A stretch of 64,000 nucleotides of DNA from a virus: positions 1 through 64,000 of IMG/VR virus record IMGVR_UViG_3300025132_000028. One strand, 5' to 3'. How positions within the stretch are numbered: position 1 is the stretch's first letter; each line of letters opens with the position of its first letter. This document shows positions 11 to 28,514 of the stretch, piece after piece. Under the pieces are notes generated by a model. It searched no databases. It was not told the origin of the DNA and saw nothing but the letters and a program-made list of their open reading frames with translations. Position numbers and translations under genes: made by a program.

Positions 11-205
11 ATGAAAACTAAACGTCAAATCAAACTATCCGTGTTAATGGACAAACTATGTGACCTCGGATGGGAATACACTTGTAATAGAATGTCACGC
101 AGCGGTATGCAAACCTATGATGAGATTTTACAATACGTAGGGGCATTGAATTCTAATGAGCATTGGAACGAAGATGCATACATTGACAAACAGTGTGACC
201 ATTAG
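11..205 (+). CDS. early hypothetical protein
   Basis: 64-aa ORF ending exactly at the first repeated promoter module; same strand and size class as the neighbouring early ORFs. Confidence 0.75.
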   Translation: MKTKRQIKLSVLMDKLCDLGWEYTCNRMSRSGMQTYDEILQYVGALNSNEHWNEDAYIDKQCDH

Positions 206-292
206 TGGACAGTTAACAAAGTGGCACATGGGGAGGTTTACACCTCCCTTTGTCGTGTATAATAATAGTATACACAAACAGGTTTCCACAAC
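205..292 (+). promoter_or_regulatory. early promoter module 1 (palindromic box + sigma70-type -10 + leader)
   Basis: GTGGACAGT-TAACAA-AGTGGCAC at 205-227; GGGAGGT/ACCTCCC hairpin 231-248; TATAAT 258-263; leader CAAACAGGTTTCCACA. Confidence 0.8.
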
Positions 293-3032: not shown

Positions 3033-3034
3033 TC

Positions 3035-3390: not shown

Positions 3391-3412
3391 AATGATGTAA
3401 CCCACTCAAATT

Positions 3413-4325: not shown

Positions 4326-4435
4326 ATACTATTGAAAGAAAACCGAAAAAAACAAAACAAGGGAAGGGTAGACATACAAAATATGCTGCAAGTTCCCGTA
4401 ATTCCAAGAAAAAGCGTCCTAGAGGTCAAGGATGA
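4322..4435 (+). CDS. 37-aa highly basic peptide (...KPKKTKQGKGRHTKYAASSRNSKKKRPRGQG)
   Basis: GTG start with GAGG RBS, overlaps both neighbours by 4 nt; resembles a small basic protein seen upstream of gp25 in T4-like cyanophages. Confidence 0.65.
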   Translation: MNTIERKPKKTKQGKGRHTKYAASSRNSKKKRPRGQG

Positions 4436-13400: not shown

Positions 13401-16400
13401 ACATATGAAGATTCTGTGGCAGATGTCCCCGTTATAGTTTCTTTAACAAGTATTGGTGGTACGAGTCATAACTTTGGTTTAATTAATCCAAAAGTAGAAA
13501 TTCCTAGCAGATCTACAACTGTATTTGATTTACAAAACTATGAGTTAAATGGATATAATTTCAAAATTTATTATGACCAAGGATTTAATAGTGAGTTTGT
13601 AGGAACTGGTCAAAGTACATCTGCTGAAGTTGGTGATGTTCTTGATGCAGAAGATCGTGTAATTAGTATTGGTAACACTTATGCTAGATTAGATGTTAAT
13701 AATAATACCTTCTGTCCTAAGATTCTCTATTATAATGTTACTAAAGATGGAACACCATTAATTCCAGATAATGATGTAAAAGAAAATAATACTATTAAGT
13801 ATGTGGATAGTGCATACACTGGTATGTTTACGATCACTGGTATTGGTACTTCCGCAGTTGGAGTCGGTACTACTACATTTAGTTTTGCGATCGCAAAAAA
13901 TCCAGAGCAAGTTTCTTATGCTGCAACTGAGGGTAGAAGGTTCTATGCTACTGGTGCTGTTGGTCCAGAAGGTCCAATTGATCAGATTAGTTTACTATCC
14001 AGTGGAGAATTCTATAGAAAATTACCAAGATTCTTAGGTGTTGATTCTGAAAATGGTGATAACTCCACTATTAAACCAAAATCAACCAGAATTGGTCAAA
14101 TTAACTCAATTCAGTTAGTAAATGAAGGATTTAACTATTCTTCTGATACTACTTTAAGACCAATTGTTGATGTTCCTACTGTTACTACTATTAGAGACTT
14201 TAATACTGTTGGTACAATTAGTATTTTATCTAATGGTAAGAACTATATTTCTGCTCCTAAGTTAGAACTTGTTGATAGATTTGTAGGTACAAAAGTTCCT
14301 GGTGCTAATATTGTTGCAAGAATTAATGAAAACTCAGGTTCTATTGTAGATACAGAAATTGCAGCTAATCCTGTAGGTCTACAAAATAGAGAGTATAGGT
14401 TATATTCAGTTAATAATACAAACGGTATTGTCATCACAAAATCAGAATCTAACCCAACTAGAAGTGGTATTGTAACATTTACAATTTCTACTCCTGTTCT
14501 TGGGTTTAGTTCTCCTCCATTTGCTGTTAATGATGAAGTTTGGATCGAAGGTTTTTCAAAAGATTCTGGTTCAGATGGTTATAACTCATCTGATCATCTA
14601 TACAATTTCTTAAAAGTTAATAATGTTGTAACAACTAATCCATTCTCCTTTGAAGTTGATTATTCAAATTACACATTTAATGTTGGTTTGGGTGTTAGTG
14701 ATACTCAAAACTTCTCTCGTGTTATTGGTAAAGAAGAACTACCTACATTTAGTATTGGTTTACAACAAGCTTCATTTGATAAAAATGAAAAACTACTTGT
14801 AAATAATGCAGAGACTGATTTACAAGTTATCTCTTTTGATGCAACTGCTGAAAATATTAAGTTTGTTGGTACTGCTCCTATTGTTCCTGATGATATTATC
14901 ATTGGAGCAAAGAGTGGTAGTCAAGCAAAAGTTGTAGAAATCTTAAGATTTGATGGTGTTTACAGTGTAGAAGCTGAAACAGATAAGACTATTGAAGGAA
15001 CATCTGATTCTGGAAAACTAAATTCAAGTGCTCAAGTTATCCAAGATAATAATTATTATCAGAATCTTTCATATACACTTAAAACTGAAGTCTCTTATGA
15101 AGATTGTATTGATGCGGTAAACAACAGTGTTCACCCAACAGGTCTTAAAAACTTTGTTGATAGTCAGTTAGTAACTATTGGTAAGAATGCTGGTATTCAA
15201 ACTTCTACTACTGTTACTAATGCTACAGTAGATCTTGTTGAAGAAGTAAGAGTTGATGATCAATATTATTTTGATATAGGTAGAGATGTTAATATTGCAA
15301 CTAGAAGTGAGGTAGAACTCAGTAATGAGATTGAATTGGAAAATGCAAAATTATCTGACTATTTTGAATCTATTACAAACAGAGTTCTAAACATTGACGA
15401 TATTTCAAGTCAGTTTAGTAATATTAGTAATCCAAACACTTTGGATCTATTTGAAAATATTTACAGATATCCATTTAACTTTATCTCAAATAGATTCCTT
15501 GTTCAAATTACTAGTGAAGATCGTAGAGATTTCCAAGTTTCTGAAATTACTATTCTTCAAGATGGAACTAATACTTACTATGCAGAACCAACCTTTAAGA
15601 AATTACATAGTACACCACAAGAAATAGGAACTCTTGAAGGTTCTGTAGACACAGAGAATTCACAAGTTCGTTTAAGATTCTTCCCTGCTGATCCATTTGA
15701 TAAAAATTATGATATTAAAGTTCTAAATCAGTTTTATAATACTGAATCAACACTGACTGGTATTGGTACCACTGCGTTTGGTTTTGCTGCTCTAATGGGT
15801 TCTGATGCTGAAATTGGACCTTCTACATCTAAATCTTTTGTTTCTGTTGCAGCAACAAACTTTGATTATCTACATTCTCAAGTTGAAGTAGAAACTGTAT
15901 CTTCTGGTCAAAAAGAGACCATGTTTGTTGAACTGAAAGCAATTCATGATGGAAATGATAGTTATATGTCTGAATATAATATCATTCTTTCTGATGGTTC
16001 TTTTGGTGGTACTAACGCAGGTGCATTTGGTACATTTGGAACTACTTATGATCCTAGTGGTAATAACTTTAGTATTGAATTTTATAATGCTAGACCTTCT
16101 GAGTTTGTAAACTTAAAAGCAAGAACATTAGGTTTTGGTAATACTACTGGAACTACTAACAGAGACTATAGATTCTTAGCAACAGGAATGATTCCTAATA
16201 ACGAAAGATCTGCTCAGTATTATACTGAATATCAGACTGTTGGTGTTGGATCTACCGCAAACTTTGCTGGTATTAAGAGTGATATTCAGTCCGTAAACCA
16301 GTGTACAATGGTTGTTGGATATGGAAGGACAGTATCTGCCTTCCAGTATATGTTCTTGAATGACCAACTTGGTGATTCTCTATACTTCTCGGAATATCCC

Positions 16401-19400
16401 GTATTATCGGTCGGTAATACGACGGGTCTGGGAACGGTATTTGCCAAATATGATGGTGAAAAGGCTGTTCTTGTGTTTACACCTGAGGCAGGTATAAATG
16501 ACAAAATGTTCATGAGAACATTTAATGAAGTCCTTTACTTAGAACTTGAAAGAAATATTGTAAATCCATTGGAATATGGAGCAGTTGTTGAAGAAACTTT
16601 CAATACTACTTACACAGGTTTGAATTTCAGAAATATCTTTGAATTCCCAATGTTGTGGAATGGATATCCAATTTTCTCTAAAACATTTAATCCTTCTAAT
16701 ACTTCTGCACTTAATCTTGCTACTGGTCAATTTACTATTAAAAATCACTTCTTTGCAAGTGGTCAAGAATTAGAATATCTCCCTGGTGGAACATTTGTTG
16801 GTGTTGTCACAGCACCAATGACTCTTGCAAACGGAAATCCTCTACCATCTCCAGTTTACGCAATTAAAGATAATGAAGATCAGTTTAGAATCGGTCTCAG
16901 CACGGTAGCTGCCTTAGCTGGTATTGGAACTACTTTAGGATCTGTTGGTGCAGGTAATCTTCACGAATTTGATTCAACTGGTAAACTATCCAGATCTCTT
17001 ATTGCGATTGATGGTCTTGTTCAAAAACCACTTACTTGGTCACCAATTACTAGGACTCTAGAGAATAATACAACTCTTTCTGGTTCTAGTCTTGGTCTTG
17101 GTAAAACTTCCACATTTATGGCAGTTTCTGGTATTTCATCTATTGTTCTTGGTGATTTATTTGAGATTAATGATGAATTTGTACTTGTTGAAGCTGTTGG
17201 TGTTGGAACAACTACTACTGATATTAATTCTAGTGGTATTGGTACAATTAACTTATGTAAGATTCAACGTGGTTCAGTAGGAACAGCAGCATCGTTCCAT
17301 GCTAATGGTTCAATAATTCAAAAATACACTGGTTCTTATAACTTCTCTAGAAATAATATTTTCTTCACTGGTGCTCCTAATGGTGGTAAATCTTCTGATG
17401 AAGCATCTACAACTGGTATACCAGAAGCAGGATCTAGTTTTAATGGAAGAGTTTATTTGAGAAAAAATTATGATTCCAATAAAATCTTTGATGATATTTC
17501 TGGTCAGTTTACTGGTATTGCAAAAACATTTACTCTTAGATCTGAAGGTGAAGATATAACTGGTATTGGTAGTGAAGGTGGTTTTGGTATCTTCTTTGTG
17601 AACAATATGTTCCAAAAACCACAAACTCCAAATAACTTTAATGCAAACCTATTCATTAGAGAAACTGGTGGTCAGACTGATCTAACTTTCACTGGTATTC
17701 TTAATGAAAGTGGAGATCCTATTGTTTCTGCAACAGATATTAACCAAAATGGTTTACCTAGAGGTGGTGTTGTTGTTACTTTAGGTTCTAGCGAAGGTAA
17801 AGGATTTGCAAACCTAGGTAATCCATCTATTGGTGCTTCTATCAACCATGCAGGTGAAGTTTATAAGATTCTGACTGCACCAACAACTCAAGGAATGAGT
17901 AGCATTACCAATTATGTCTACGATCATACTATAGGACTTTCTACAGTTACAACCTCACAAGCACATGGATTAGAAGCAGGTGATAGTATTGATTTTGTAG
18001 GTATTGGATTTACTTGTGTACCAACTAAATCTGGAATTACTACTGGTGTCTTCCCATATACTAGAGGTCAGAAGAAGACTGTGGTTGACTTCCTTTATGA
18101 TAATAAAACTGGAATGGCAACAGTAACCACTCTAGAAAGATTTGGTATTTTAGAAGTAGGTGAGGAAGTATTCTTCAATGGTATTGGTTTCACATGTATT
18201 GGTCAAAAGTTTGCTCAAATCAGTCAGAAAGCTGGAATTACAACCACTCTCTTCCCTTGTAGAGCAGGTATTGCTAAGACTATCTCTGCCTTTAATTATG
18301 ATAATCAGTCTGGTATTGCTACTATTACTTTGGCAACTCCTCACAGATATGTGGAAGGGGAAAGACTCTTTATTGAAAATCTTAACTTAAAGTGTGGATA
18401 TGGTGCTAACATTACTAATGCCATCTATGACGCACCAACAGGTCTTACAACAATAACTACAGCAACTCCTCATAAATTCTCCAAAGGAGATAAGGTTAGA
18501 TTGCAGGGTCTTGAATTCTCTTGTGCTGGATATGGAATAACATTTGCTATTTCTACCTTTGAATATAATAATTCTACAGGTATTACTACGATTACAACTC
18601 CTAGTCCTCATGGAGCACTACCTGGAGAACAGATAAAATTAACTGGTCTTGGATTTACATGTCCAAAAGTTAATGTTGGAACACCTATTGGATTTACTTA
18701 TGAACCTTTAACTGGTCTTTCTACAGTCACATTTGCTTCTAATCATGGATTAACAAATGGTGATAAAATCTCCATTGGTGCAAGTAGTATTGTATTTACA
18801 TGTACTTTAGATGGTGGTGCTACAACTCATCCATATCCTCGTCCTACAGACTTTGCATATAATAAGTATCTACCAATTTCAGGTGTAACTACAAATTCAT
18901 TCCAAGTTAATGTTGGAACTGGTGGTACAGGTACATTCCCACATACCTTTGTTAGTGCAACTACAAATGCGATTAAAACTCTTAACTATCTTGGAGTAAC
19001 AACTTCAACATTCCCAGATGGTACACAGGGAAATCAATTCAGAGTTACTAAAGTTCTTTCTCCAACCAAGATTCTAACAAATGTTGGTATAACTTCTATT
19101 CCTCATGTTTATACTGAAGGTGGTGAGGTACAGGTTGGTGTTACATCTCATATCTACCCAACTGGTAAATATGGATTTGAATTTATTGTTTCTAGCACAC
19201 CAACTAGAAATAAGTTCAGAGTTAACGTAGGACCTTCCACAATTGCTCACACTTATGTAAGTGGTGGTACTGCACTTCTTGGATTAAGTACAACCATATA
19301 TCCATCATCGCAATCAGGTATTGGTCACAGTATAACTGACTTTATTTACGATAATACTACTGGTCTTTCTACTATTACTGTTGCAAGAAATTCTATACCA

Positions 19401-22400
19401 TTTGCATTGGGTGATAGAGTCAACTTTGCTGGTTTAGGATTTACATGTCCTAGTGGTTTTGCTGGTCTAACATCAACTATTTTCCCACAATCATTAGGAA
19501 GAAAATATAATATTGGAACAGTTTTCTATAATAATGCTACTGGTCTTGCTACTGTAACCACAACTGCTGCTCATGATTTTAAAGTAACAGATAGTCTAGA
19601 TTTACAAAATCTTCTCTTTAATTGTTCTTCAGCATATGCTGGCGTAACTACTCATAGATTCCCAGATTATGTTGACGAACCTAATAGATCTTACAGAGTT
19701 CTAAGAATAGTTGATCCAAATACAATCTGGGTTGATGTTGGTGTTTCTACAATTGTTCACACATATAACCTTGGTAGACATACATGGGTAGGAGGAACAG
19801 CAAGTAATGCAGTTCAGTCTGGTGGTAATTATGTACATACATTCTTATCTGCTGTAACAAATGGAGTTACAAGTGACGTTGGTAATTTACCAAACCCAAT
19901 TACAAACGTAGCATATACTCCTAACACAGGTAATATGGTAATTACCTCTGCTACTCATTTATTAACAACTTCTAATACACTTACCATCGCTGATAACGCA
20001 TTGTCCTTCACATGTACAATGGATGGAAATACAGCAACGAAGACTTATCCAAGATCTACTGACCCTGTATCTGGACAAACTATTACTATTACAGGAACAA
20101 CTACTAATACTATTACAATTAACGTTGGAGCATCACCTATTGTTAATCATGATGTAACAAATGCTACTTATGACAACGATACAGGTGTAATGGTCTTAAC
20201 TATTGGTGCCCATACTCTAACAACTGGAACCAGTATTAAGATAGCAAACGGAGCATTGAGTTTTACATGCGAGGACGATAATAATGTAACAACTAAGACT
20301 TATCCTCGTGCTAGTGACCCTTATTATGATACTGCAATTAACATTGATGCAGTAGGGGCAGATACTATTACATTAAATGTTGGAATTAATACTCGTGGTA
20401 CAGTTTCTGCAATTAAGAAAACTGGTCCTTATGAAGTAACCAGACTTCTTGCACCTAGACCATATGATGTAACTAATGCCATCTATGATCCTGTTGTAGG
20501 TATCATGACTGTTACTGTTGGTAATGGACATGGTATTTCTGTTGGTGAAACTGTTGATATTGGAACTAATGCATTAACATTTACCTGTGATATGGATTCC
20601 ACAGGTTCTCAAAAAACATATCCAAGAAATTTAATTAAAACCTTTACAGCAACTAATGCCATCTATGATCCTGTTGTAGGTGTAACAACTATAACTGTTG
20701 CTGGTCATGGCATGGATGATGGATGTTGGGTCAAATTAGCAGATGAATCATTATCATTCATATGTGGTTATGGTGTAACTACTCATATATTTGTATCTGC
20801 AACAACTAATGCTGTTAATGTCCAGAGTGGTGCAGAATCTGGAAATGAAAAGACCCCTAACGCAGCAACTTATAATGCATCAACAGGTCTTCTTACATTA
20901 GGATTTGCAGCTGCTCATGGAATGTCAACTAGTGATACAATTACTCTTGATTTCAATTCATTAACATTTACTTGTGCTGCAGATTATCATGCAACAACCC
21001 ACACATATCCTCGTGTTACTGATCCTATTGCAGGAGTAACCACTGCTGTAACTGTTACATCAGGAACTGAGTTTACACTTAATGTTGGAGATTCTCTAGG
21101 AAGTAAGAGTGCAAAATCATATCCACGTTCTAGTGATCCTATTAGTGGAGAATGGATACAAGTTTCTAATACTACAACAGATACTTTTGAGATTCAGTCT
21201 TTATCTGACAATTCTACCCCATCTACAAACATAGATGCACATACATTTACATCTGCTGTAACAGGTGGTATTACACATAAAGTAGATAAATCATTCGAGC
21301 AACCAGTTTCAGTTGTTGGCGTTGGAAATACTACCATCGATCTTCAAGTTGGTAGATCACCGATAGTTAATTTCAACGTAACTAACGCTACATACGAACC
21401 AACAACAGGTGTTATGGAGTTGACTATTGGTTCTCATGCTTTTGCAGTCGGTCAACATATAAAATTAGCAGATAACTCAATATCATTTACTTGTACTTTA
21501 GATGGTAACACTTTAGTCAAGTCATATCCTCGTGCTAGTGGTACTGGTATCAATGCTGGTACTCCAGATTATGCATATCAGAAATCTTTAGAAATTAGTG
21601 CAGTAACCTCAACGACTATTACTATCAATGTCAACTCTAGTGTAGGTCTTTCTTCTATCAGTGACTTATCTGCTCATACATTTGATAGTGCAACTGCAGG
21701 CGCTGTTATTGCAGGTGGTAACTATGCACATACATTTGTTGGTGTTGCTACTGGTGCTATCACAAAAGGTGGTCCTAGATTCAACTGTAACGTCGGTATT
21801 ACCACTTACAAACACAACTATACACCTTCAATTGGCGTTGGTGAAGTAAGAAAACAGAACTTTGGTGGTGTAGATGATACCTTTATCGTAACTGGTATTG
21901 TCGGTAAGAAGTCGTTTACAATTGATGCTGGTATTTCAACTTATACTCACTTCTACGATGTAGATACAAAAAATGCAATCAGTAAGAAGAAACTAAGGAC
22001 TGATTCATTCATTGTTGATACTATTTACAGTGATAGGTCATTTAGAACTAATGTAGGGGTTTCTTCATATCGTCACGTATACGATCCAAAACCAAGTAAA
22101 GAACCTGGTGGTATTAGTAGTATTACTGGAATGACATACAACACCTCTACTGGTATTGCAACATTTACTGTTCCTAATCATGGAGCAATTGGTGGTGAAC
22201 TAATCAGTATTTCTGGTCTTGCCTTAACTTGTCCTGGCGGTACAGGTATTACAACTCATATTTTCCCAGATCCTAATGGTTTAAGTAGAAATATTAGCAC
22301 CGCTAATTATAATAATTTCACAGGTATAATGACAGTGACCACTAACGTTGGTCATGGTGTTACATTTGTTGGTCAGTTTGTAAAACTTGAAAATCTTGGT

Positions 22401-25400
22401 TTCGCTTGTACTGGCGGAGCTGGTGGAAGTCATACTTTTGTAAGTGCAGCAACTAGCGCAGTCCAGACTGGTGGTAACTATACACATACATTTGTTCCTC
22501 AATTTGGTTTGACACCAGATACTGCTTTGTATGATCCAGTTACAGGTATAATGACTGTTACTAATCAGCAATTGACTGTATCAGATGCGATTTATGATCC
22601 TGTTAGTGGTGAAATGACATTGACTGTTGGAGTTCATAGATTAACAAATTATGATAGTGTACGTCTTGACACAGAATCAATATCCTTTAGTTGTGTATTT
22701 GAAGGTAAGTTACAAACTAAGGCATATCCAAGATCAAATGGTAATGATTATGTCTATGATAAGGATTTACCAATCATACGTTATACATCTGACACAATTA
22801 CAGTCAATGTTAATGGTGGAAAAGGTGCTATCAGTCATGCTGTTCCTCATACCTTCATGAGTGCTACTTCAAAGGGTGTTAAAGTTAATCATGGATTAAG
22901 AAATGGTGATTATATTAAGTTTGATGATTATGCAGTAACATTTACATGTAATAAAGATGGTAATGCAACTCTTCATCCATATCCAAGACCTACTGATCCT
23001 CTTAGTGGTACATTTACACAGGTTACTGTTGTTGATGAGAACAAATTTAGTGTAGGAGTATTAACAGTTACACCTTCCACAGATACTTCAGTTCATACAT
23101 TTGTATCTGCTCTTGAGGGTGGTATTAAGAAAGAAGTAATTAATAGTGGCGGTGACCATCCACATACATTTGTTGGTACAGCAACTAGTGCAATCCAATC
23201 AGGTGGTAATTATGTTCATACATTCTTATCTGCTGTAGCAAACAGTGTTACCTCAAATGTTGGTAATTTACCTAATGCAGTAACAGATGTAGTATATACA
23301 CCTTCCAGTGGTGATATGGTAATTACTTCTGCTGCTCATTTATTAACTGGATCAAATACAATTTCTATTGCTAATAATGGATTATCCTTTACCTGTACAA
23401 TGGATGGCAATACAGCGACTAAGACATATCCTAGATCAACTGATCCTATTTCTGGAATTGCAACTGCTATTACAGCAACAACCACAGATACATTTACAAT
23501 CAACGTTGGTGCATCACCTATCGTAAATCATGATGTTACGGATGCAACTTATGATGCAGCGACAGGTGTGATGGTACTAACAATAGGTGCTCATACATTA
23601 CCAACTGGAACAAGTGTTAAGATTGCTAATGGTTCACTACCATTTACTTGCACAATGGATGGTAATACATCAACGAAGAATTATCCAAGATCTACTGATC
23701 CATTCTATGATACTGCTGTTGGTATTGCTTCGACAACCAGTACTACAATCACACTTAATGTAGGTAAATCTCCTATTCTCCCATTTGATGTTAGTGCTGC
23801 AACTTACGATGCTGCTACAGGTGTAATGGTAGTAAACATTGGTGCTCATACCTTAAAAACTGGAACAAGTGTTAAAATTAATGAAAAATCATTACTATTC
23901 ACATGTTCACAGGATGATAATGCAACAGTTCATGCATATCCTCGTTCAACTACTGCTTCTCTTACCGCAACAACTGGCACAGTTTATGATCCTGTTGTAG
24001 GTATCATGACCATCACCACTCCTGCTGCTCATGGAATGAAAAATGGTGATGAAGTTAAATTTGCTGATGGTGCGGTTTCATTCTCATGTCAATATGGTGT
24101 AGGTTCAGCACATACATGGGCTGGTGGAACAGTAACTGATGCTGTTACAATTACTGTTGGTCCTGTCCAGACAAAACATGATGTAACTAATGCCACATAT
24201 AATCCTGCAACTGGTGTTATGGTATTTACCATTGGGGCACATAGTTTCACAACTGATGACTTAGTAGAAATTGGTGCTGAGAAGTTTGCATTTACTTGTA
24301 CTGCTGACGGTAACGTCAAGACTAAGTATTATCCTCGTGCAACTGATCCTGCATATAATACTCCTCTATTAATTACTGCTGTAGACCAAGCTGGTGGAAC
24401 AATCACAGTTAATGTTGGTGCTACTAGTGGAACTGTGGCAACCGCATATCCTCGTTCTACTGATTTCATTAGTAATAGGTGGGTTGAAATTTCTAATGTA
24501 ACCACAAAAACATTTGATGTCCAAGTATTAGATGTAATCCCTTCTACAAATACTGATGCTCATACATTTGTATCTGGAGTTACTAATGGCATCACATTCA
24601 AACGTGCAAAAGACCCATACTATAATACTTCTGTTGCTATTGCTGCTACAACTAGTGATACAGTCAGTTTAAATGTTGGTGTATCAACTATCGTAAATTA
24701 TAATGTTTCTGATGCGAGTTACGATCCAAATTCAGGTAAAATGGTACTTACCATTGGTTCTCATGACTTAGATGTAGGAACAAGTATCAAGATAGCAGAT
24801 AACTCACTCACATTTACATGTGATAAAGATAATAATGCGACTCAGCATAGTTATCCTAGAACTCTTATAGAGACTAAAACTGTAACTGATGCTAATTACG
24901 ATCCTACTACTGGTATGATGGTACTTACTGTTCCTAACCACGGATTTGAGAATGGTAGGCAAATTAAGTTAGCAGATAATTCATTAACATTTACTTGTAC
25001 TCTTGATGGAAATACTACAAATAAAACTTATCCAAGACCAACTGATCCTTTCAGTGGTAAGTGGATAAAAGTACAAAACGTCACTACAAATACTTTTGAA
25101 GTACAAACATTAGCAACTGTACCTTCCACAAACGTTTCTGTACATACATTTGTAAGTGCAACTGATGAAGGTTTATCACATAAGAGAGATCCATTCTATG
25201 ATAATAATATTAATATTGAGGCAAGAACTCCAAATACTATTACTGTTAATATTGGTGCAACTCCAGATCTTCAGCAGAGTACTGGATTAACAGGACCAAC
25301 ATATTTCACTGATGTTCCTATCACTGGATTTAACTATACTAACGCTACTGGTGTTACAACTATAACCGCAGTTGGTCATGGACTAACAACAGGTGAAAAT

Positions 25401-28400
25401 GTAAAACTATCTGGTATTGCTTTGACATGTACTTCTGGTATGAAAACATATCCAGATGGTGGAACAGGATTCTTCTTCGGAGTAACTAACGTTATTGATG
25501 CTAATACTTTCGTAACAAACACAGGTATCTCAACTATAGTACACACATATGTCAGTGGTGGTAATGTAAGAACTGGTGTTACAAGTGACAAGTTCCCTAA
25601 TCCTCAAGGTTCATTTAGTAAGATTGCTAATTTTGAATATAACAATATGACTGGTTTGGCAACAGTAACAACCAATGGTTTCAATCAACTTGGAACTGGG
25701 CAGTTAATTAACTTTGAAAATATCCATATGCTTTGCCCAATTGGTAGTGGTACTACACATGTATTCCCACAAGATACTGGAACAGTTGTTAATATTAGTA
25801 ACTTCCAATATGATAATCAGTCTGGTATTGCGACCGTTACTACCGCAACCAACCATAATTTTGTCCGATTTAAGAAGGTTAGATTGCAGGGTATGACCGT
25901 ATCATGTGCATATGGTTCTAAGACTTATCCAGATAAGCAAACTGACTTTGAATTAACGACTATTGTTAACTCAACAACATTTGTAACTAATGTAGGAGTA
26001 TCAACTCTTGCTCATACATATGTTTCTGGTGGTACTGCAGCAGAAGTTAAATTTGCTGGTCCTTACACAGTTAAGGAAAGAATTGACAGAAATACATTCA
26101 CTGTTAATGTTGGTGTTTCTACTTACGTCCATACTTATGATCACTCTGGTAGAGTATCTCCTGTAAGATATACTGGACCTTATGAAGTACTTGCTATTAC
26201 TAATAGTAAGGAATATACCATCAATGTTGGAAGATCTCCAATTGCTCATACTTACACTGGTGGCGGTACATCCAAACCACAACAATACACTGGTCCTTAT
26301 AAGATAATTGCTGCACCTGACGCAAATACATTAAGAGTAAGAGTTGGTATTTCGACTTATCAACACTTCTACGGTAGTGGAGGTATGATTGCTAGGTTAC
26401 GCTCTGGTATTGCTGAGAAGAAACTAAATCCAGGTCCATTTAGAGTTAAAGATGTATATTCTGCTACTGAATTTACTACTGACGTTGGTATCTGTACATT
26501 TAAACACTTCTATCACTCTGGTGGTAAAGTTGGTAAGGTTAATCAATTCTTCCCTGGTAGTGGATTCTATGGAAATAATGTTCCAGTAACAGTAGTTCCT
26601 GAAAATGGTGTTGGAAGTGGTTTAACAGTTACTACTACAGTTGGTTTTGGTGGAAGTCTTGTTCCTTCTCTAGATTATGTTGGAACTGGATTTACTATTG
26701 CTCCAAGGTTAGAAACTCCTGGACCAGCTTATGATGATCTCCCAGTTAGAGGTCTCTTTAGACTAGGTATTGGTCAGACAACTGCTACTGGTATTGGATT
26801 ATCTGTAACTTTAAATGTTGGTGGTATTAGTACTAGTGGTGTTGCATCAGAAACAAGTGGCGTTAAAAACTTTACAATTGGAAACAGAGGATATGGTTTC
26901 CAACTCAATGATAAAGTTAGTCCTGTTGGTTTAGTAACCGCTGCGAAAATCCTTGCTGGATCTAAGACCGTTGGTTACACAACTGAAACTGAACCATTTG
27001 AACTTACAGTTATTGATACATTCTCTGATACTTTCTACGGATGGCAATTCGGTCAACTTGATTATATTGATGATATTACTTCATTACAAGATGGTGTAAC
27101 AAAGAGATTCCCACTATTCCAAAATGAGCAGTTAGTCAGTTTTGAGAAAGCAGATGGAACACCTATTAGTTTCCCATCACTTCTTATCATCTTTATTAAT
27201 GGTGTTCTTCAAATTCCAAACAAAGATTACATATTTGAAGGTGGTACTGCATTTGAATTCACAAGTCCTCCACAAGAGGCAGACCAAGTTACAATTTACT
27301 TCTATAGAGGTAGTAATGATGATGTTAATACTGTTAACGTAGTTGAATCCATTAAAATTGGTGATGAATTAATCTTAATTAAACCAGTTGGTGTTTCTAC
27401 TGTTCCAGATCAAGACCCAAGAGTTGTTAATGAAATTGTTGCATCTGATATTCTTGCAACTAACTTATACTCTCTACAGGGTATTGATAACAACTTCAAG
27501 AGACCTGTTGTTTGGAGAAAACAAAAAGTTGATAGAACTGTTGATGGACGTATTATTCCTAAGACTCGTGAAGCACTAGAACCACAAATCTATCCAACAG
27601 CAAGAATTATTGGTTCTGCATCTACAACTCAAGATTTCCTCTTCCTTGATAATGCTAGTTTGTTTAACTATGAAGCAGTGACTCCATCTACCAACTTCGA
27701 TGGTATCATTACTCAAGGAGAAGATCCAGTTGTAGGTATTCTAAGTGTTGGAGTAAATGCTGGTACAATTTCTACAATCACTGTTATCAATGGTGGTTCT
27801 GGATATACTGGAATCGTAACAATTTCCATATCCAATCCACCTGATATCACGGTTGGTTTTGGAACAACTGCATTAGCAACTGCAATTATTTCCAACGGTG
27901 CAGTTATTGGTGCAAATATCACCAATGCTGGTAGTGGATATGGAACAAGTGCATATGCGTTATTACCAACTCCACCTGTAAGTATTGAAAGTGTTTCATT
28001 AATACCAACTGTAAATGGTTATGAAGGTGATATTATTGGAATTGCAACTGCCACTGGAATTGGTACCAATCTCAGCGTCAAGTTTACTTTAGATCTTCCA
28101 AATTCTCCATCAGATACTCTTAGAGATGGAATGAGAATATTTGTTAACAATACTAATGTTGGTTCAGGTGTAACTTCTATTGATACCAACAACTCTCAAG
28201 TAATTGGTATTGGAACAACTGCTTGTGATAACATCTTTAAGGTTCACCAAGTTCAGTATGATGCAGGTAACGGAATCATAACCGCTTTCTGTAATATTGA
28301 TTCAAATTCAAATACTTCTGGACTTAATACTGTTGGATTTGCATACACTAATGTCGGTTTCTACAGTTGGGGAATTGTTACTGGATTTAGTAGAGGAACT

Positions 28401-28514
28401 GCTCCAATTGCAATAAATGTTGATGGAAATACGTTCTCTGTTGGTCTCGGATCATACCCACTTTTCCAGAGAAGAGGGTTTGGTTTAAGGGGTACTGGAG
28501 GAATCACAAAATAA
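7473..28514 (+). CDS. gp7: giant baseplate wedge initiator-like structural protein (7013 aa)
   Basis: between gp6 and gp8; N-terminal QLP.FV....PKF..FL.QYY.SQE and FY.TKGT..SF.ILF..LYG; SPIIGWAYDGNPI.GP (YHYH-like); QDNNYYQNLSY..K...VHP.G; central repeat region. Confidence 0.85.
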   Translation: MINKRVKIKDVIESQLPRFVLEDNPKFADFLRQYYISQEFQGGAIDLAENLDQYIKLDNLVDNVINPDIILERACTSTDTDIVLSSSDGLPDEYGLIKVGDEIITYTERDGNTVKGCIRGFSGISKYRDENNPEELIFESTDTSAHVSGVVVFDTTGYTAADYYYQSATITKMFGIIRVKASGTSGRSTPTTFRLGITNIDNDFYQLSNANRDSNANDLTTLGIDSLGLNQTIVIDEGDTIEFIVNAQGFPLWIQSTGNGYDTTTVLTTGITNGGASTTTTVQNLSVEFLKEYYIKLKELYAPGFEDRTLSSGINVGNFLKNVNSFYKTKGTRESFRILFNVLYGKKVQVVDLEDFVVKSSTSDYLRRAIVVVKAISGNPLLLTGQTLYQDSDPTNADVQVASGPISEVEIFTRQGEEFYKIPLFVGFNEQSLVSGEFFVPGFTKNTLLASANTRVINVDSTVGFSRSGSFFIDSLGITVTYTDKNLTQFLGCSGLTSDLPVGSEVRSTVIAYGYEGGDSTKKVEMRITGVLGEFEAQGNNYYLDVGNEIYIKSIGENISPPADPLTLPTYKQRIFNSWIYNIATRYEVAEITGSTLSVSDKFDKSNLRTGDSVEILARGTNTITTTAVVTVIDSNTLQLSNTTGITTDRNWDIRRVISRATSSNDLIEFGNQTIISNIQNAYVTKNKVNESMYVATQGLPSFSFSVDKVFVDFRGQDVGIGQIDQLVSFQTNLPFVTGDEIVYEALSGSTALEGLVSGTRYFIWVNPAANNQLKLANARSFIEVSKFIELKTGTGTHRLTLASQYGKNIQPQKILRQFPLKPSVSSGLAQTTSYGPTGMLINGIEILNYKSNDYLYYGPLQSVELVSGGSDYDVINPPKITVSNPGVGGTVAVINPVLSGSLKSLYLENRESYDIDQVFGINIEGGNGEGASGEITLSQDYTEANFNAKDILANGGVDIPANTLTFIGEHNFKTGQKIVYNPNGNQPLGVAITLGSDDNTQYDAENTLQSGVAYFANVINTTTIKLHETEDDANAGLSTVGITTFNTLGIHKFRSFDFKNKIQNISVVTEGSGYKKRTYETKTTGISTGTNCFIIKQHGFLDNEEVIYQATNSIRELTTETNYRIIRINADAFRLALSETDVNRGRYIFLSDVGSGIHTVKYPDITATVVASIGGTTVSIPCEPDVRGEIIGAYLSEPGSNYGSKVLNFEKPPLITVSSGTGAQFQPLISNGVITQVQIIGAGSNYTSAPDLTVTGPTGSGAQLKAKLNANGKVSTVEVISGGLNYDAEDTAIVVRSVGQSGIIESTVRPLTVNLHEKYSTDDFLNAETQYPIQYASLAYSTDLQTDFGDSLAQRSPIIGWAYDGNPIFGPFATRDPKQNTGITTYVRSGYQLASNLVPNRPTAGEYPAGFFVEDYKFMGTGDLDVHNGRWFVSDDFPDGIYGYVATLEIDPGTGLPRASFPYYIGDTYIAPRASQSISQDDDINALDLSRNTYPYRLKSLNASYDFVIEADELIGQEGVIDSVFTGGVEELEIVEAGDLYKVGNTLLFDEEGTNGNGVSAQVSFIKGKSVTDLQSTNVQFDEVTFQKTGDTEITGIIQPNHDFNNGEVIEIFNTNTDIKGLQGFHVVGVASERAILLDPVKAGAVGVVTDLIVSRIPGNVSGGSSIKFSDGEVAKVLNVIKGKNLVRIERTGIASFSASGTISYLQDRFTIASDAPQFVSEFFPKKFFNPKQTVGVGTTVGNYETLSYTENNIAQTRVVEHGSIFLNKHPFLDGQKALFVKKSGQLSLGVATAIGIGTTATLVADSLPRSGVEQEVFIIYKSINTIGIKTQKNGAELFFTSDGSDDDGYFVQGIGTAVRGSVLQPTTTVTTTQAHGLKIGDTVNFNVIANQEVGLGASSRVRIELNSEGLIIVDSQGISSTGVNTSTNRISISGNNFRTGDRVYYEPKSEVIGGLGTGRYYIYRDSPENFRLCETYEDSVADVPVIVSLTSIGGTSHNFGLINPKVEIPSRSTTVFDLQNYELNGYNFKIYYDQGFNSEFVGTGQSTSAEVGDVLDAEDRVISIGNTYARLDVNNNTFCPKILYYNVTKDGTPLIPDNDVKENNTIKYVDSAYTGMFTITGIGTSAVGVGTTTFSFAIAKNPEQVSYAATEGRRFYATGAVGPEGPIDQISLLSSGEFYRKLPRFLGVDSENGDNSTIKPKSTRIGQINSIQLVNEGFNYSSDTTLRPIVDVPTVTTIRDFNTVGTISILSNGKNYISAPKLELVDRFVGTKVPGANIVARINENSGSIVDTEIAANPVGLQNREYRLYSVNNTNGIVITKSESNPTRSGIVTFTISTPVLGFSSPPFAVNDEVWIEGFSKDSGSDGYNSSDHLYNFLKVNNVVTTNPFSFEVDYSNYTFNVGLGVSDTQNFSRVIGKEELPTFSIGLQQASFDKNEKLLVNNAETDLQVISFDATAENIKFVGTAPIVPDDIIIGAKSGSQAKVVEILRFDGVYSVEAETDKTIEGTSDSGKLNSSAQVIQDNNYYQNLSYTLKTEVSYEDCIDAVNNSVHPTGLKNFVDSQLVTIGKNAGIQTSTTVTNATVDLVEEVRVDDQYYFDIGRDVNIATRSEVELSNEIELENAKLSDYFESITNRVLNIDDISSQFSNISNPNTLDLFENIYRYPFNFISNRFLVQITSEDRRDFQVSEITILQDGTNTYYAEPTFKKLHSTPQEIGTLEGSVDTENSQVRLRFFPADPFDKNYDIKVLNQFYNTESTLTGIGTTAFGFAALMGSDAEIGPSTSKSFVSVAATNFDYLHSQVEVETVSSGQKETMFVELKAIHDGNDSYMSEYNIILSDGSFGGTNAGAFGTFGTTYDPSGNNFSIEFYNARPSEFVNLKARTLGFGNTTGTTNRDYRFLATGMIPNNERSAQYYTEYQTVGVGSTANFAGIKSDIQSVNQCTMVVGYGRTVSAFQYMFLNDQLGDSLYFSEYPVLSVGNTTGLGTVFAKYDGEKAVLVFTPEAGINDKMFMRTFNEVLYLELERNIVNPLEYGAVVEETFNTTYTGLNFRNIFEFPMLWNGYPIFSKTFNPSNTSALNLATGQFTIKNHFFASGQELEYLPGGTFVGVVTAPMTLANGNPLPSPVYAIKDNEDQFRIGLSTVAALAGIGTTLGSVGAGNLHEFDSTGKLSRSLIAIDGLVQKPLTWSPITRTLENNTTLSGSSLGLGKTSTFMAVSGISSIVLGDLFEINDEFVLVEAVGVGTTTTDINSSGIGTINLCKIQRGSVGTAASFHANGSIIQKYTGSYNFSRNNIFFTGAPNGGKSSDEASTTGIPEAGSSFNGRVYLRKNYDSNKIFDDISGQFTGIAKTFTLRSEGEDITGIGSEGGFGIFFVNNMFQKPQTPNNFNANLFIRETGGQTDLTFTGILNESGDPIVSATDINQNGLPRGGVVVTLGSSEGKGFANLGNPSIGASINHAGEVYKILTAPTTQGMSSITNYVYDHTIGLSTVTTSQAHGLEAGDSIDFVGIGFTCVPTKSGITTGVFPYTRGQKKTVVDFLYDNKTGMATVTTLERFGILEVGEEVFFNGIGFTCIGQKFAQISQKAGITTTLFPCRAGIAKTISAFNYDNQSGIATITLATPHRYVEGERLFIENLNLKCGYGANITNAIYDAPTGLTTITTATPHKFSKGDKVRLQGLEFSCAGYGITFAISTFEYNNSTGITTITTPSPHGALPGEQIKLTGLGFTCPKVNVGTPIGFTYEPLTGLSTVTFASNHGLTNGDKISIGASSIVFTCTLDGGATTHPYPRPTDFAYNKYLPISGVTTNSFQVNVGTGGTGTFPHTFVSATTNAIKTLNYLGVTTSTFPDGTQGNQFRVTKVLSPTKILTNVGITSIPHVYTEGGEVQVGVTSHIYPTGKYGFEFIVSSTPTRNKFRVNVGPSTIAHTYVSGGTALLGLSTTIYPSSQSGIGHSITDFIYDNTTGLSTITVARNSIPFALGDRVNFAGLGFTCPSGFAGLTSTIFPQSLGRKYNIGTVFYNNATGLATVTTTAAHDFKVTDSLDLQNLLFNCSSAYAGVTTHRFPDYVDEPNRSYRVLRIVDPNTIWVDVGVSTIVHTYNLGRHTWVGGTASNAVQSGGNYVHTFLSAVTNGVTSDVGNLPNPITNVAYTPNTGNMVITSATHLLTTSNTLTIADNALSFTCTMDGNTATKTYPRSTDPVSGQTITITGTTTNTITINVGASPIVNHDVTNATYDNDTGVMVLTIGAHTLTTGTSIKIANGALSFTCEDDNNVTTKTYPRASDPYYDTAINIDAVGADTITLNVGINTRGTVSAIKKTGPYEVTRLLAPRPYDVTNAIYDPVVGIMTVTVGNGHGISVGETVDIGTNALTFTCDMDSTGSQKTYPRNLIKTFTATNAIYDPVVGVTTITVAGHGMDDGCWVKLADESLSFICGYGVTTHIFVSATTNAVNVQSGAESGNEKTPNAATYNASTGLLTLGFAAAHGMSTSDTITLDFNSLTFTCAADYHATTHTYPRVTDPIAGVTTAVTVTSGTEFTLNVGDSLGSKSAKSYPRSSDPISGEWIQVSNTTTDTFEIQSLSDNSTPSTNIDAHTFTSAVTGGITHKVDKSFEQPVSVVGVGNTTIDLQVGRSPIVNFNVTNATYEPTTGVMELTIGSHAFAVGQHIKLADNSISFTCTLDGNTLVKSYPRASGTGINAGTPDYAYQKSLEISAVTSTTITINVNSSVGLSSISDLSAHTFDSATAGAVIAGGNYAHTFVGVATGAITKGGPRFNCNVGITTYKHNYTPSIGVGEVRKQNFGGVDDTFIVTGIVGKKSFTIDAGISTYTHFYDVDTKNAISKKKLRTDSFIVDTIYSDRSFRTNVGVSSYRHVYDPKPSKEPGGISSITGMTYNTSTGIATFTVPNHGAIGGELISISGLALTCPGGTGITTHIFPDPNGLSRNISTANYNNFTGIMTVTTNVGHGVTFVGQFVKLENLGFACTGGAGGSHTFVSAATSAVQTGGNYTHTFVPQFGLTPDTALYDPVTGIMTVTNQQLTVSDAIYDPVSGEMTLTVGVHRLTNYDSVRLDTESISFSCVFEGKLQTKAYPRSNGNDYVYDKDLPIIRYTSDTITVNVNGGKGAISHAVPHTFMSATSKGVKVNHGLRNGDYIKFDDYAVTFTCNKDGNATLHPYPRPTDPLSGTFTQVTVVDENKFSVGVLTVTPSTDTSVHTFVSALEGGIKKEVINSGGDHPHTFVGTATSAIQSGGNYVHTFLSAVANSVTSNVGNLPNAVTDVVYTPSSGDMVITSAAHLLTGSNTISIANNGLSFTCTMDGNTATKTYPRSTDPISGIATAITATTTDTFTINVGASPIVNHDVTDATYDAATGVMVLTIGAHTLPTGTSVKIANGSLPFTCTMDGNTSTKNYPRSTDPFYDTAVGIASTTSTTITLNVGKSPILPFDVSAATYDAATGVMVVNIGAHTLKTGTSVKINEKSLLFTCSQDDNATVHAYPRSTTASLTATTGTVYDPVVGIMTITTPAAHGMKNGDEVKFADGAVSFSCQYGVGSAHTWAGGTVTDAVTITVGPVQTKHDVTNATYNPATGVMVFTIGAHSFTTDDLVEIGAEKFAFTCTADGNVKTKYYPRATDPAYNTPLLITAVDQAGGTITVNVGATSGTVATAYPRSTDFISNRWVEISNVTTKTFDVQVLDVIPSTNTDAHTFVSGVTNGITFKRAKDPYYNTSVAIAATTSDTVSLNVGVSTIVNYNVSDASYDPNSGKMVLTIGSHDLDVGTSIKIADNSLTFTCDKDNNATQHSYPRTLIETKTVTDANYDPTTGMMVLTVPNHGFENGRQIKLADNSLTFTCTLDGNTTNKTYPRPTDPFSGKWIKVQNVTTNTFEVQTLATVPSTNVSVHTFVSATDEGLSHKRDPFYDNNINIEARTPNTITVNIGATPDLQQSTGLTGPTYFTDVPITGFNYTNATGVTTITAVGHGLTTGENVKLSGIALTCTSGMKTYPDGGTGFFFGVTNVIDANTFVTNTGISTIVHTYVSGGNVRTGVTSDKFPNPQGSFSKIANFEYNNMTGLATVTTNGFNQLGTGQLINFENIHMLCPIGSGTTHVFPQDTGTVVNISNFQYDNQSGIATVTTATNHNFVRFKKVRLQGMTVSCAYGSKTYPDKQTDFELTTIVNSTTFVTNVGVSTLAHTYVSGGTAAEVKFAGPYTVKERIDRNTFTVNVGVSTYVHTYDHSGRVSPVRYTGPYEVLAITNSKEYTINVGRSPIAHTYTGGGTSKPQQYTGPYKIIAAPDANTLRVRVGISTYQHFYGSGGMIARLRSGIAEKKLNPGPFRVKDVYSATEFTTDVGICTFKHFYHSGGKVGKVNQFFPGSGFYGNNVPVTVVPENGVGSGLTVTTTVGFGGSLVPSLDYVGTGFTIAPRLETPGPAYDDLPVRGLFRLGIGQTTATGIGLSVTLNVGGISTSGVASETSGVKNFTIGNRGYGFQLNDKVSPVGLVTAAKILAGSKTVGYTTETEPFELTVIDTFSDTFYGWQFGQLDYIDDITSLQDGVTKRFPLFQNEQLVSFEKADGTPISFPSLLIIFINGVLQIPNKDYIFEGGTAFEFTSPPQEADQVTIYFYRGSNDDVNTVNVVESIKIGDELILIKPVGVSTVPDQDPRVVNEIVASDILATNLYSLQGIDNNFKRPVVWRKQKVDRTVDGRIIPKTREALEPQIYPTARIIGSASTTQDFLFLDNASLFNYEAVTPSTNFDGIITQGEDPVVGILSVGVNAGTISTITVINGGSGYTGIVTISISNPPDITVGFGTTALATAIISNGAVIGANITNAGSGYGTSAYALLPTPPVSIESVSLIPTVNGYEGDIIGIATATGIGTNLSVKFTLDLPNSPSDTLRDGMRIFVNNTNVGSGVTSIDTNNSQVIGIGTTACDNIFKVHQVQYDAGNGIITAFCNIDSNSNTSGLNTVGFAYTNVGFYSWGIVTGFSRGTAPIAINVDGNTFSVGLGSYPLFQRRGFGLRGTGGITK
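17904..26540 (+). repeat. 28 nested copies of a ~85-95-aa beta-rich domain within gp7
   Basis: N-half Y[DN]xxTGxxTxTxxxH..G..[VI]....L.F[TS]C; C-half ..V.....F.[VI]NVG.S...H.[YF]..[GA]; counted by hand. Confidence 0.85.

What the first reader, a model, noticed from the sequence alone, without database searches (positions are those of the whole stretch)
17904..26540. Russian-doll protein: 28 copies of one domain nested like balanced parentheses inside giant gp7
Seen: the repeat is mostly not tandem. It occurs as N-halves (Y[DN]xxTGxxTxTxxxH..G..V....L.FTC) and C-halves (..V.....F.VNVG.S...H.[YF]..[GA]). Six N-halves are stacked at 17904-18803 before any C-half; five C-halves are stacked at 25947-26540. 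Parsing by hand as open/close brackets gives 28 opens and 28 closes, the first opener being closed by the last closer about 2800 aa later. Insertions use several loops: after FTC; between YPR and DP (YPRTLIETKT[domain]HKRDPFY, YPRSTTASLT[two domains]KRAKDPYY); in mid N-half (LYDPVTGIMTVT at ~22527 resumes as NHGLRNGDY at 22887 after a whole domain); some copies look circularly permuted (HTF strand before the N-half). Inference: a single chain folds into a branched tree or antenna of beta domains projecting from the baseplate, grown by repeated domain-into-domain insertion. This would be an unusual way to build and diversify a host-contact appendage.
Basis: partly seen in the sequence, partly recalled or inferred. 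Interest (0 to 1): 0.92.

Follow-up and report, generated by a model that had tools for sequence, protein, structure and literature searches.

The report
Nested beta-barrel tree in cyanophage gp7
A 7013-residue baseplate protein of a Prochlorococcus phage carries 28 copies of one small beta-barrel domain, about half of them split open by further copies inserted inside them up to seven levels deep, which is an extreme example of a rare way of building a protein.

Summary
The ORF at window 7473-28514 encodes a 7013-aa gp7 baseplate wedge protein of a T4-like Prochlorococcus myophage. Profile HMMs find 28 N-halves (one split) and 28 C-halves (one split) between residues 3480 and 6353. In order they form a balanced bracket word, seven levels deep. 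All 28 bracket pairs join halves of the same subtype.

Relatives lose or gain whole domains cleanly. Between the same conserved flanks they carry 2 to 28 copies.

Limits: I could not see model coordinates. The outermost pair of each model is not shown. The N1-with-last-C co-fold gave only weak support. A test for matching ancestry of paired halves within a subtype was negative. The antenna shape and host-contact role are inferred.

Recursive self-insertion is already known from cyanobacterial RNA polymerase Si3 (six levels), so this is a new, larger variant in a virion protein, not a new principle. Another first-stage note of this scan covers the same stretch.

The parts
7473..28514 (+). gp7 baseplate wedge gene, 7013 aa, one open frame
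   Evidence: phrog_2885 'baseplate wedge subunit' aligns colinearly along the whole protein. It lies between a gp6-like (phrog_219) and a gp8-like (phrog_438) gene. P-HM1/P-HM2/P-SSM2 gp7 DNA hits.
7473..17909 (+). Host part of gp7 upstream of the array (aa 1-3479). Includes a YHYH domain at aa 1269-1450 and the conserved upstream flank at aa 3400-3473.
17910..18812 (+). Six stacked N-halves N1-N6 (aa 3480-3780). N1 and N2 are each followed by their TT..FP middle element.
   Evidence: six hits, 43-54 bits
18813..19337 (+). Closers C6, C5 and C4, then the middle element of N3 (aa 3781-3955)
   Evidence: The AlphaFold2 model of aa 3649-3936 with VIA-align rows spanning 39..242 and 84..190.
19338..21857 (+). 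N7 sub-tree (aa 3956-4795). N7 holds N8, N9, N10, then N11[N12[N13]] and N14 inside its split C-half (pieces at aa 4316-4326 and 4771-4785).
21858..22130 (+). Closers C3 and C2 (aa 4796-4886)
   Evidence: 44.8 and 49.9 bits
22131..22418 (+). Openers N15 and N16 (aa 4887-4982)
22419..22520 (+). Two 'GGNY.HTF' strand units (aa 4983-5016). Role unexplained.
   Evidence: families D4, D6
22521..23180 (+). N17 split in mid N-half by the complete domain N18, then closed (aa 5017-5236)
   Evidence: profile 1-14 and 16-41 flank a 50.6-bit N-half
23181..23285 (+). Two more 'GG..HTF' strand units (aa 5237-5271). Their number varies among close relatives.
23286..23795 (+). Two contiguous tandem domains N19 and N20 (aa 5272-5441). 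Relatives at 92-96% identity have 1 or 3 here.
23796..24710 (+). Three-level nest N21[N22[N23]] (aa 5442-5746). Paralogous to N11[N12[N13]].
   Evidence: AlphaFold2 model; VIA-align rows 52..270 and 109..209.
24711..25277 (+). Two-level nest N24[N25] (aa 5747-5935), inserted between YPR and DP. Conserved colinearly in many loci.
25326..25577 (+). Contiguous type I domain N26 (aa 5952-6035)
   Evidence: Weak PF16190 E1_FCCH hit: E 0.0043, 17.5 bits, cut-off 29.5.
25578..25916 (+). Middle element of N16, then openers N27 and N28 (aa 6036-6148)
25917..26540 (+). Five stacked closers C28, C27, C16, C15 and C1 (aa 6149-6356)
   Evidence: five hits, 50-57 bits; for C1 with N1 (weak support)
26541..28511 (+). 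Host part of gp7 downstream of the array (aa 6357-7013). Matches phrog_2885 positions 3525-4177.

Best explanation
Residues 3480-6356 of gp7 are an array of 28 copies of one ~85-residue six-stranded beta-barrel. The fold is that of the Uba1 FCCH domain and the phage endosialidase beta-barrel, a fold whose two ends lie side by side. The array sits at a single site between conserved parts of the baseplate protein.

Fifteen copies are discontinuous. Their N-half and C-half are separated by one or more complete copies. Most insertions lie in the long loop between the FTC strand and the C-half; one lies in the first hairpin and one in the C-half hairpin. The chain therefore runs outward through N-halves and returns through C-halves. 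Each host barrel is completed only on the way back. Each guest is tied to its host by two linkers, and the chain comes back to its starting point so that the conserved C-terminal part of gp7 can rejoin the baseplate.

The parse gives a tree: root N1; boughs N2 and N15; hubs N7 and N16 with five and seven guests; 13 leaf domains.

Shown here: the element counts, their order, the balance, the subtype concordance, the modelled pairing of the middle domain in two sub-trees, whole-domain indels, and variable copy number at one site.

Inferred: the array grew by repeated duplication and insertion of domains and sub-trees. I also infer that it forms a branched projection at the baseplate periphery that binds host surface glycans multivalently. 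I give about 0.85 to the nested topology and about 0.4 to the adhesion role.
For: Sequence. 28 N-halves and 28 C-halves, one of each split exactly around complete domains. Balanced word, depth 7, 28 of 28 same-subtype pairs. The domain occurs in no other ORF of the window.

Co-fold of N1 plus its middle element (65 aa) with the last C-half (53 aa). Verdict weak support: score 0.43, best of 3 controls 0.01. The mark was reached by 58 of 80 solved complexes and 2 of 110 mismatched pairs, but at 0.60 or under by only 7 of those 80 and by both mismatches that passed. The runs agree in at least 77% of contacts, and the partner's pLDDT is at least 58.

Comparison. P0005 and P0010 lack exactly the inner domain N6-C6 and are otherwise colinear. 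Seven other rows at 33-57% identity (L080, L084-L086, P0076, P0034, P0036, P0050) keep the N N N C C C order. phrog_2885 (4179 positions) is colinear with the whole of gp7, and only about positions 3333-3524 of it lie between its matches to the flanks, where this protein has 2879 aa. Between the two conserved flanks, the 11 proteins or ORFs in which both were found carry 2, 2, 3, 7, 9, 11, 11, 12, 13, 28 and 28 N-halves. Relatives at 92-96% identity have 1, 2 or 3 tandem copies at N19/N20. A 300-nt DNA repeat at 78% identity marks a sub-tree duplication.

Automated parse of 121 giant proteins (the window's own gp7 and the 120 homologues listed). All 23 with equal N and C counts are balanced words, and 113 of 121 never go negative.

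Fold and role. Weak sequence hits to PF16190 and PF12195. The nearest named Atlas cluster is viral E1_FCCH (score 0.91, a lead only). BFVD matches are cyanophage 'tail fiber-like', 'endosialidase', 'baseplate wedge initiator' and 'long tail fiber' proteins. The repeat region also hits PHROGs annotated as tail fiber protein.
Against: No coordinates or contact maps were available. Pairing is inferred only from the first and last aligned residue and the aligned length of VIA-align rows.

pTM is 0.45 and 0.53, so the mutual arrangement of the domains, and hence any rod or antenna shape, is unknown.

The N1/C1 co-fold is only a weak pass. It used shallow alignments of near-identical rows, and it could not tell C1 from any other C-half.

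A Mantel test asked whether the similarity matrix of N-halves matches that of their bracket partners. Within subtype it was negative: r 0.351 against a permuted mean of 0.344, with 8877 of 20000 permutations at least as high. Only 4 of 26 domains have the same nearest relative for both halves.

The first piece of the split C-half scores -2.8 bits.

The automated parse misses 3 of the 28 C-halves in this very protein. Only 23 of 121 proteins come out balanced, and 8 of 121 go negative.

I assigned the subtypes myself.

Nothing here tests location on the virion, glycan binding or host contact.
Confidence: 0.8

Rival explanations
1. N-halves and C-halves are separate small folding units. Runs of N-halves stack on each other and runs of C-halves stack on each other, as a solenoid or tandem sheet. 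The equal counts would then be a by-product of duplicating mixed blocks.
For: Six N-halves and five C-halves do lie in uninterrupted runs. Within a subtype, the halves paired by the brackets are no more alike in ancestry than unpaired ones. The outermost pairs were not seen in either model search.
Against: In the model of the run N4 N5 N6 C6 C5 C4, a contiguous 80-residue barrel aligns over N5...C5 with N6-C6 looped out. The same holds for N22...C22. P0005 and P0010 delete exactly one N-half together with its adjacent C-half. The word is balanced and never negative, and all 28 pairs are subtype-concordant. N1 and C1 raise each other's pLDDT from 31-39 and 34 to about 60 in the co-fold. That comparison is my own reading of the control rows, and the co-fold verdict was weak support only.
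Confidence: 0.06
2. The topology is nested as described, but the array is structural, not a receptor binder. It would be a skirt, spacer or strut at the baseplate periphery that replaces the T4 peripheral proteins, and its copy number would set geometry.
For: The array is embedded in a core wedge protein between conserved flanks. Two-linker tethering suits a stiff strut (inference). No binding motif or enzyme family was found.
Against: Copy number differs even among relatives at 92-96% identity (1, 2 or 3) and spans 2 to 28 between homologues. That pattern is more usual for host-contact parts than for parts that set a fixed geometry (general knowledge, not tested). The fold and the BFVD neighbours are those of tail-fibre-like and endosialidase proteins.
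Confidence: 0.3
3. The halves pair between different gp7 chains of the baseplate (domain swapping), so the array cross-links neighbouring wedges.
For: Unpaired-looking runs of halves at both ends could in principle reach a neighbour. T4 baseplates hold six gp7 copies (recalled, not tested).
Against: The halves are exactly balanced within one chain. Monomeric models already satisfy the middle domains. Inner domains are closed locally.
Confidence: 0.04

Closest known systems
Si3 (SI3) insertion of cyanobacterial RNA polymerase beta' (rpoC2), e.g. Prochlorococcus marinus A2C6T1
   Same: One small beta domain family is inserted recursively into itself. This gives discontinuous host domains and an out-and-back chain placed at one site of a large conserved protein. 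The paper reports eight domains in a six-level recursive architecture, with bifurcating nodes where one host holds several guests (PMC13114784, abstract and passages of sections 2.1-2.3 read).
   Different: Different fold: hybrid-motif domains there, an FCCH/endosialidase-like barrel here. RNA polymerase was not among the 50 rows of either VIA-align search, which does not exclude kinship. Here there are 28 domains, 15 hosts and depth 7, in a virion protein, with copy number varying from 2 to 28 among relatives.
Uba1 FCCH domain (PF16190); beta-barrel domain of phage endosialidases (PF12195; phi92 endosialidase 4hiz residues 257-338)
   Different: Sequence scores are far below the Pfam cut-offs (17.5-21 bits against 29.5; 11.4 against 35). 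In those proteins the barrel is a single guest in a different host, not a host for its own kind.
T4 gp7 baseplate wedge protein and the giant gp7 fusions of cyanomyophages (P-SSM2 orf113, P-SSM4 orf080)
   Same: Same gene position between gp6 and gp8. Same PHROG family end to end. DNA similarity to P-HM1, P-HM2 and P-SSM2 gp7. The very large size and a proposed tail-fibre-like role were noted in 2005 (PMC1079782, one passage read).
   Different: No sequence match to any solved chain for the first 1000 or the last 657 residues. The 2005 passage speaks of a fusion, not of nested domains. None of my six searches found a description of the nesting.
Periplasmic adaptor proteins of efflux pumps (MacA, EmrA, MexA)
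   Different: Those proteins nest three or four different domain types once each, with no repetition of one family and no branching.

Membership tests
gp7 baseplate wedge subunit (phrog_2885; Pfam PF23786) | Colinear match to the family profile over the whole protein | tested here: met
   phrog_2885: aa 278-993 to profile 152-859; aa 1007-2499 to 857-2388; aa 2511-3466 to 2400-3332; the last 657 aa to 3525-4177. E values 4.9e-254, 0, 9.3e-167 and 1.2e-126.
gp7 baseplate wedge subunit (phrog_2885; Pfam PF23786) | Gene lies between gp6-like and gp8-like wedge genes | tested here: met
   phrog_219 at 5579-7471 and phrog_438 at 28564-30120
gp7 baseplate wedge subunit (phrog_2885; Pfam PF23786) | Reaches Pfam's gathering score for PF23786 | tested here: not met
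   20 bits against a cut-off of 27, E 0.00052, aa 313-350 only
gp7 baseplate wedge subunit (phrog_2885; Pfam PF23786) | Sequence similarity to solved T4 gp7 | tested here: inconclusive
   phmmer of aa 1-1000 and aa 6357-7013 against all PDB chains: 0 matches at E <= 0.01. The middle of the protein was not searched.
E1_FCCH / endosialidase beta-barrel fold | About 80 residues superpose on the solved barrel | tested here: met
E1_FCCH / endosialidase beta-barrel fold | Reaches Pfam's gathering score (PF16190, PF12195) | tested here: not met
   PF16190: 21 bits and 17.5 bits against 29.5. PF12195: 11.4 bits against 35.
E1_FCCH / endosialidase beta-barrel fold | Carbohydrate binding, as described for the endosialidase barrel (recalled) | not testable with these tools
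   No binding assay or ligand modelling was done.
Recursive (nested) domain-insertion array, as in RNA polymerase Si3 | Discontinuous domains whose two parts flank complete domains of the same family | tested here: met
   HMM mapping. Split ranges in two models. Clean deletion of the inner domain in P0005 and P0010.
Recursive (nested) domain-insertion array, as in RNA polymerase Si3 | Recursion over several levels without crossing pairs | tested here: met
   Balanced word, depth 7. The structural models support only the middle and inner levels of two three-level sub-trees.
Recursive (nested) domain-insertion array, as in RNA polymerase Si3 | Domains are hybrid-motif (Si3-type) domains | tested here: inconclusive
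   No RNA polymerase chain among the 50 rows listed. Foldseek rows for Thermus RNA polymerase had probability 0.03-0.10.

The most novel reading that the evidence does not exclude
This is the largest and deepest recursive self-insertion array yet seen: 28 barrels, 15 hosts, seven levels. A whole family of giant marine phage virion proteins would use this out-and-back construction to grow double-tethered, branched lectin trees from an internal loop of a core baseplate protein. Host range would then be tuned by adding or dropping whole domains and sub-trees.
Probability: 0.3. Interest if true: 0.85.

Novelty: new variant of a known kind. Interest (0 to 1): 0.68.

Why it matters
Nearly all multidomain proteins string their domains end to end. 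Deep recursive insertion has so far been documented mainly for one cellular enzyme.

Here the same principle appears on a larger scale in an abundant group of ocean viruses. It uses a different fold that no Pfam model recognises at its gathering score. The domain recurs 9-32 times in each of the giant homologues examined.

The architecture explains how a core baseplate protein can carry thousands of extra residues at an internal site and still close its own fold. It also gives annotators a rule for reading these proteins, namely to pair the halves as brackets.

Finally, it points to a variable and probably host-facing part of cyanomyophage baseplates. Giant gp7 'fusions' have stood unexplained since 2005.

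Tried and rejected
Uba1 rows had probability 0.25-0.77.

The Mantel and nearest-relative test of the specific pairing within subtypes was negative. The specific long-range partners therefore rest on topology alone.

An iterated single C-half HMM drifted to type II and lost the type I closers, finding 13 of 28 in the window's protein. I replaced it with two HMMs, which are still imperfect (25 of 28).

One alignment for aa 5442-5951 (A1, 66 rows) was misaligned by MAFFT in its first 270 columns. Offline trials with three MAFFT modes did not cure it, so I folded only aa 5442-5746.

In alignment A4, several rows had their N-half placed under the wrong copy, or a C-half placed under an N-half. For A5 I cut the N-half off L019, L057, L005 and L010 by changing their DNA ranges. 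I dropped L022, which duplicates L019. I also dropped six tandem-domain rows: L075:2305, L004:2407, L042:6802, L038:6796, L058:931 and L078:3202. This removed possible false coupling, but also some true signal for N22-C22.

The two pieces were co-folded as separate chains instead.

phmmer of the two ends of gp7 against PDB found nothing.

Literature. Searches for a description of nested domains in cyanophage gp7 found none. Subscription journals and supplements are outside what I could see.

Papers, and what I saw of each:
- PMC13114784: abstract passage and passages of sections 2.1-2.3, 3 and 4.2.
- PMC1079782: one passage.
- All other papers: search listings only.
- Recalled and not seen: the endosialidase crystal-structure paper and its lectin-like barrel; periplasmic adaptor topology; the Iyer et al. 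papers on RNA polymerase inserts; the copy number of gp7 in T4.

Full report
What is there. The window carries the baseplate and neck module of a T4-like cyanomyophage. The gene order is a gp6-like wedge gene (5579-7471, phrog_219), one ORF of 7013 codons (7473-28514), a gp8-like gene (28564-30120, phrog_438), a 2478-aa protein of unknown function, then neck, terminase and sheath genes. The DNA of the repeat region matches gp7 of Prochlorococcus phages P-HM1, P-HM2 and P-SSM2 over short stretches at 79-87% identity. PHROG family phrog_2885, 'baseplate wedge subunit', aligns colinearly with the whole protein. The 2879-aa stretch in question falls where only about profile positions 3333-3524 lie between the flank matches. 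Pfam names no family for the repeat.

Checking the observation. I seeded an HMM with 27 N-halves found by a loose pattern. It returns those 27 at 40.6-63.4 bits. It also returns two partial hits that together make a 28th: profile positions 1-14 at aa 5017-5030 and positions 16-41 at aa 5137-5162, with a complete N-half and C-half between them. A C-half HMM finds 27 intact closers, one of which was not among its 26 seeds. A type I C-half HMM adds a split closer: positions 17-31 at aa 4771-4785 (11.0 bits), and weakly positions 1-11 at aa 4316-4326 (-2.8 bits). Four complete or nested domains lie between the two pieces. Read in order, the 56 elements give a balanced word that never goes negative and reaches depth 7. 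The first opener is closed by the last closer, 2840 residues on. The halves fall into two subtypes: 12 plus 12 of type I (GLGFTC with NVG.ST..H.Y) and 16 plus 16 of type II (two extra residues before FTC, with YPR..DP). Every one of the 28 bracket pairs joins halves of one subtype, and 0 of 200000 label shuffles reached that. I assigned the subtypes by eye from the alignments. Type II copies are mostly the inner ones, so this number is not a clean probability. The 'permuted' copies (N13, N23) do have an HTF-type strand before the N-half and none after the C-half.

The second model was the nest N21[N22[N23]] (aa 5442-5746, 26 rows, pLDDT 80.8, pTM 0.53). It gives the same picture. FCCH and the endosialidase barrel align with 78-81 residues over model range 52-270, which is N22 to the end of its closing strand. 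Other rows cover 109-209, which is N23 with the strand that precedes it. The boundaries agree with my sequence parse to within a few residues.

The longest bracket. I co-folded N1 with its middle element (65 aa) and the last C-half (53 aa) as two chains. The verdict was weak support: score 0.43, best of three controls 0.01. That mark was reached by 58 of 80 solved complexes and 2 of 110 mismatched pairs, but scores of 0.60 or less were seen in only 7 of those 80 and in both mismatches that passed. The runs agree in at least 77% of contacts, and the partner's pLDDT is at least 58. The test cannot distinguish C1 from other C-halves. A Mantel test asked whether N-half similarities mirror those of the bracket partners. 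Within subtype it was negative: r 0.351 against 0.344 for permuted partners. The specific long-range partners therefore follow from the non-crossing topology, not from direct evidence.

Comparative evidence. The domain is common in giant marine phage proteins. 390 proteins of 3857-12273 aa matched the region, and the 120 listed have 9-32 N-halves each. In P0005 and P0010 the stack is N4 N5 C5 C4. The inner domain, about 105 residues, is missing exactly, and a five-residue linker joins GLGFTC to the TT.IFPDG element. Using the conserved stretches just before N1 and just after C1 as anchors, both were found in 11 proteins or ORFs. These hold 2, 2, 3, 7, 9, 11, 11, 12, 13, 28 and 28 N-halves between them. 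P0005 has 12 openers and 12 closers, and its first opener is again closed by its last closer. Relatives at 92-96% identity have one, two or three tandem copies where the window has N19 and N20. They also differ by whole 19-residue 'GG.Y.HTF' strand units. A 300-nt direct repeat at 78% identity (19794-20093 and 23175-23474) and the colinear paralogy of N11[N12[N13]] with N21[N22[N23]] show that whole sub-trees were duplicated. In the automated parse of 121 giant proteins (the window's own gp7 and 120 homologues), all 23 with equal counts are balanced words and 113 never go negative. The C-half models miss closers even in the window's own protein (25 of 28), so these counts are soft.

How it most likely works. 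The barrel has its two ends side by side, so it can sit in a loop of another copy. Thirteen of the fifteen hosts carry their guests in the long loop between the FTC strand and the C-half: before or after the TT..FP element, between YPR and DP, or after an extra HTF strand. One host is opened in its first hairpin and one in the C-half hairpin. The chain goes out through N-halves and back through C-halves. Each guest therefore hangs on two linkers, and the chain returns to where it left. That return is what an insertion into a core baseplate protein needs if the conserved C-terminal 657 residues are to take their place. The parse gives a tree with root N1, boughs N2 and N15, hubs N7 (five guests) and N16 (seven guests), and 13 leaves.

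I infer, but have not shown, that the array projects from the wedge periphery and binds host surface glycans multivalently. The grounds are the endosialidase-like fold, the cyanophage 'tail fiber-like', 'endosialidase' and 'long tail fiber' neighbours in BFVD, PHROG hits annotated as tail fiber protein, and copy-number variation among close relatives. A purely structural role is a serious rival.

Comparison with what is known. The giant size of cyanomyophage gp7 and a tail-fibre-like role were noted in 2005 as a 'fusion' (PMC1079782, one passage). I found no description of the nesting. The principle itself is not new. A 2026 survey of domain insertions describes eight domains in a six-level recursive insertion in the Si3 region of Prochlorococcus marinus rpoC2, with hosts that hold several guests (PMC13114784). 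The present case uses another fold, has 28 domains and seven levels, lies in a virion protein, and varies greatly between relatives. By sequence the barrel stays far below the Pfam cut-offs for E1_FCCH and End_beta_barrel. I therefore file it as fold-alike, not as a member of either family. As a curiosity, the known cellular example comes from the host genus of this phage. I see no evidence of a link.

Verdict. The nested topology is well supported but not seen directly. The antenna shape and host contact are open. I rate it a new variant of a known kind, with interest 0.68.

Noticed in passing
window 19794-19856, 21699-21761, 22419-22520, 23181-23285 (gp7 aa about 4110-4130, 4745-4765, 4983-5016, 5237-5271): A separate 18-19-residue unit, 'GGNY.HTF.....T.A..', recurs singly or in pairs next to sub-trees (DNA families D4 and D6). 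Its copy number differs among relatives at 92-96% identity. What it pairs with is unexplained.
   Followed up: partly
window 23286-23795 and loci L001, L003, L004: Close relatives carry 3 (L001, L003), 2 (window, P0002) or 1 (L004) tandem copies of the contiguous domain at N19/N20. These are precise 85-residue indels.
   Followed up: yes
window 17670-17891 and 26559-26852 (gp7 aa 3400-3473 and 6363-6460): The flanks of the array are conserved in relatives with only 2-3 domains. The downstream flank carries a G.GF/GSGY-type motif like modules elsewhere in gp7, so the whole array may itself sit inside a further host domain.
   Followed up: partly
window 13077-13136 (gp7 aa 1869-1888): A weak N-half-like hairpin (11.6 bits, 1.2e-05) lies far upstream of the array. 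Three weaker hits are at aa 964, 1040 and 1590.
   Followed up: no
window 11277-11822 (gp7 aa 1269-1450): A YHYH domain (PF14240, E 1.2e-23) lies inside gp7.
   Followed up: no
window 30130-37566: A 2478-aa protein directly after gp8 matches phrog_358 (unknown function) end to end. An earlier first-stage note reports a Trp/Arg/Tyr/Gly-rich insert at 34051-34272. I did not check it.
   Followed up: no
window 39409-40794: The head-closure (gp14-like, phrog_460) protein has a C-terminal part that also hits virion structural and baseplate wedge families, including phrog_2885 positions 711-802. It therefore shares a module with the N-terminal part of gp7.
   Followed up: no
window 4432-5118: A ferredoxin-family auxiliary metabolic gene (phrog_3704, E 3.8e-117) lies just upstream of the baseplate genes.
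   Followed up: no
locus L012 3417-4217: In this relative the counterpart of N21 is a complete contiguous domain, followed by an N22[N23]-like nest. In the window N21 wraps around that nest. Tandem and nested arrangements of the same units both occur.
   Followed up: partly
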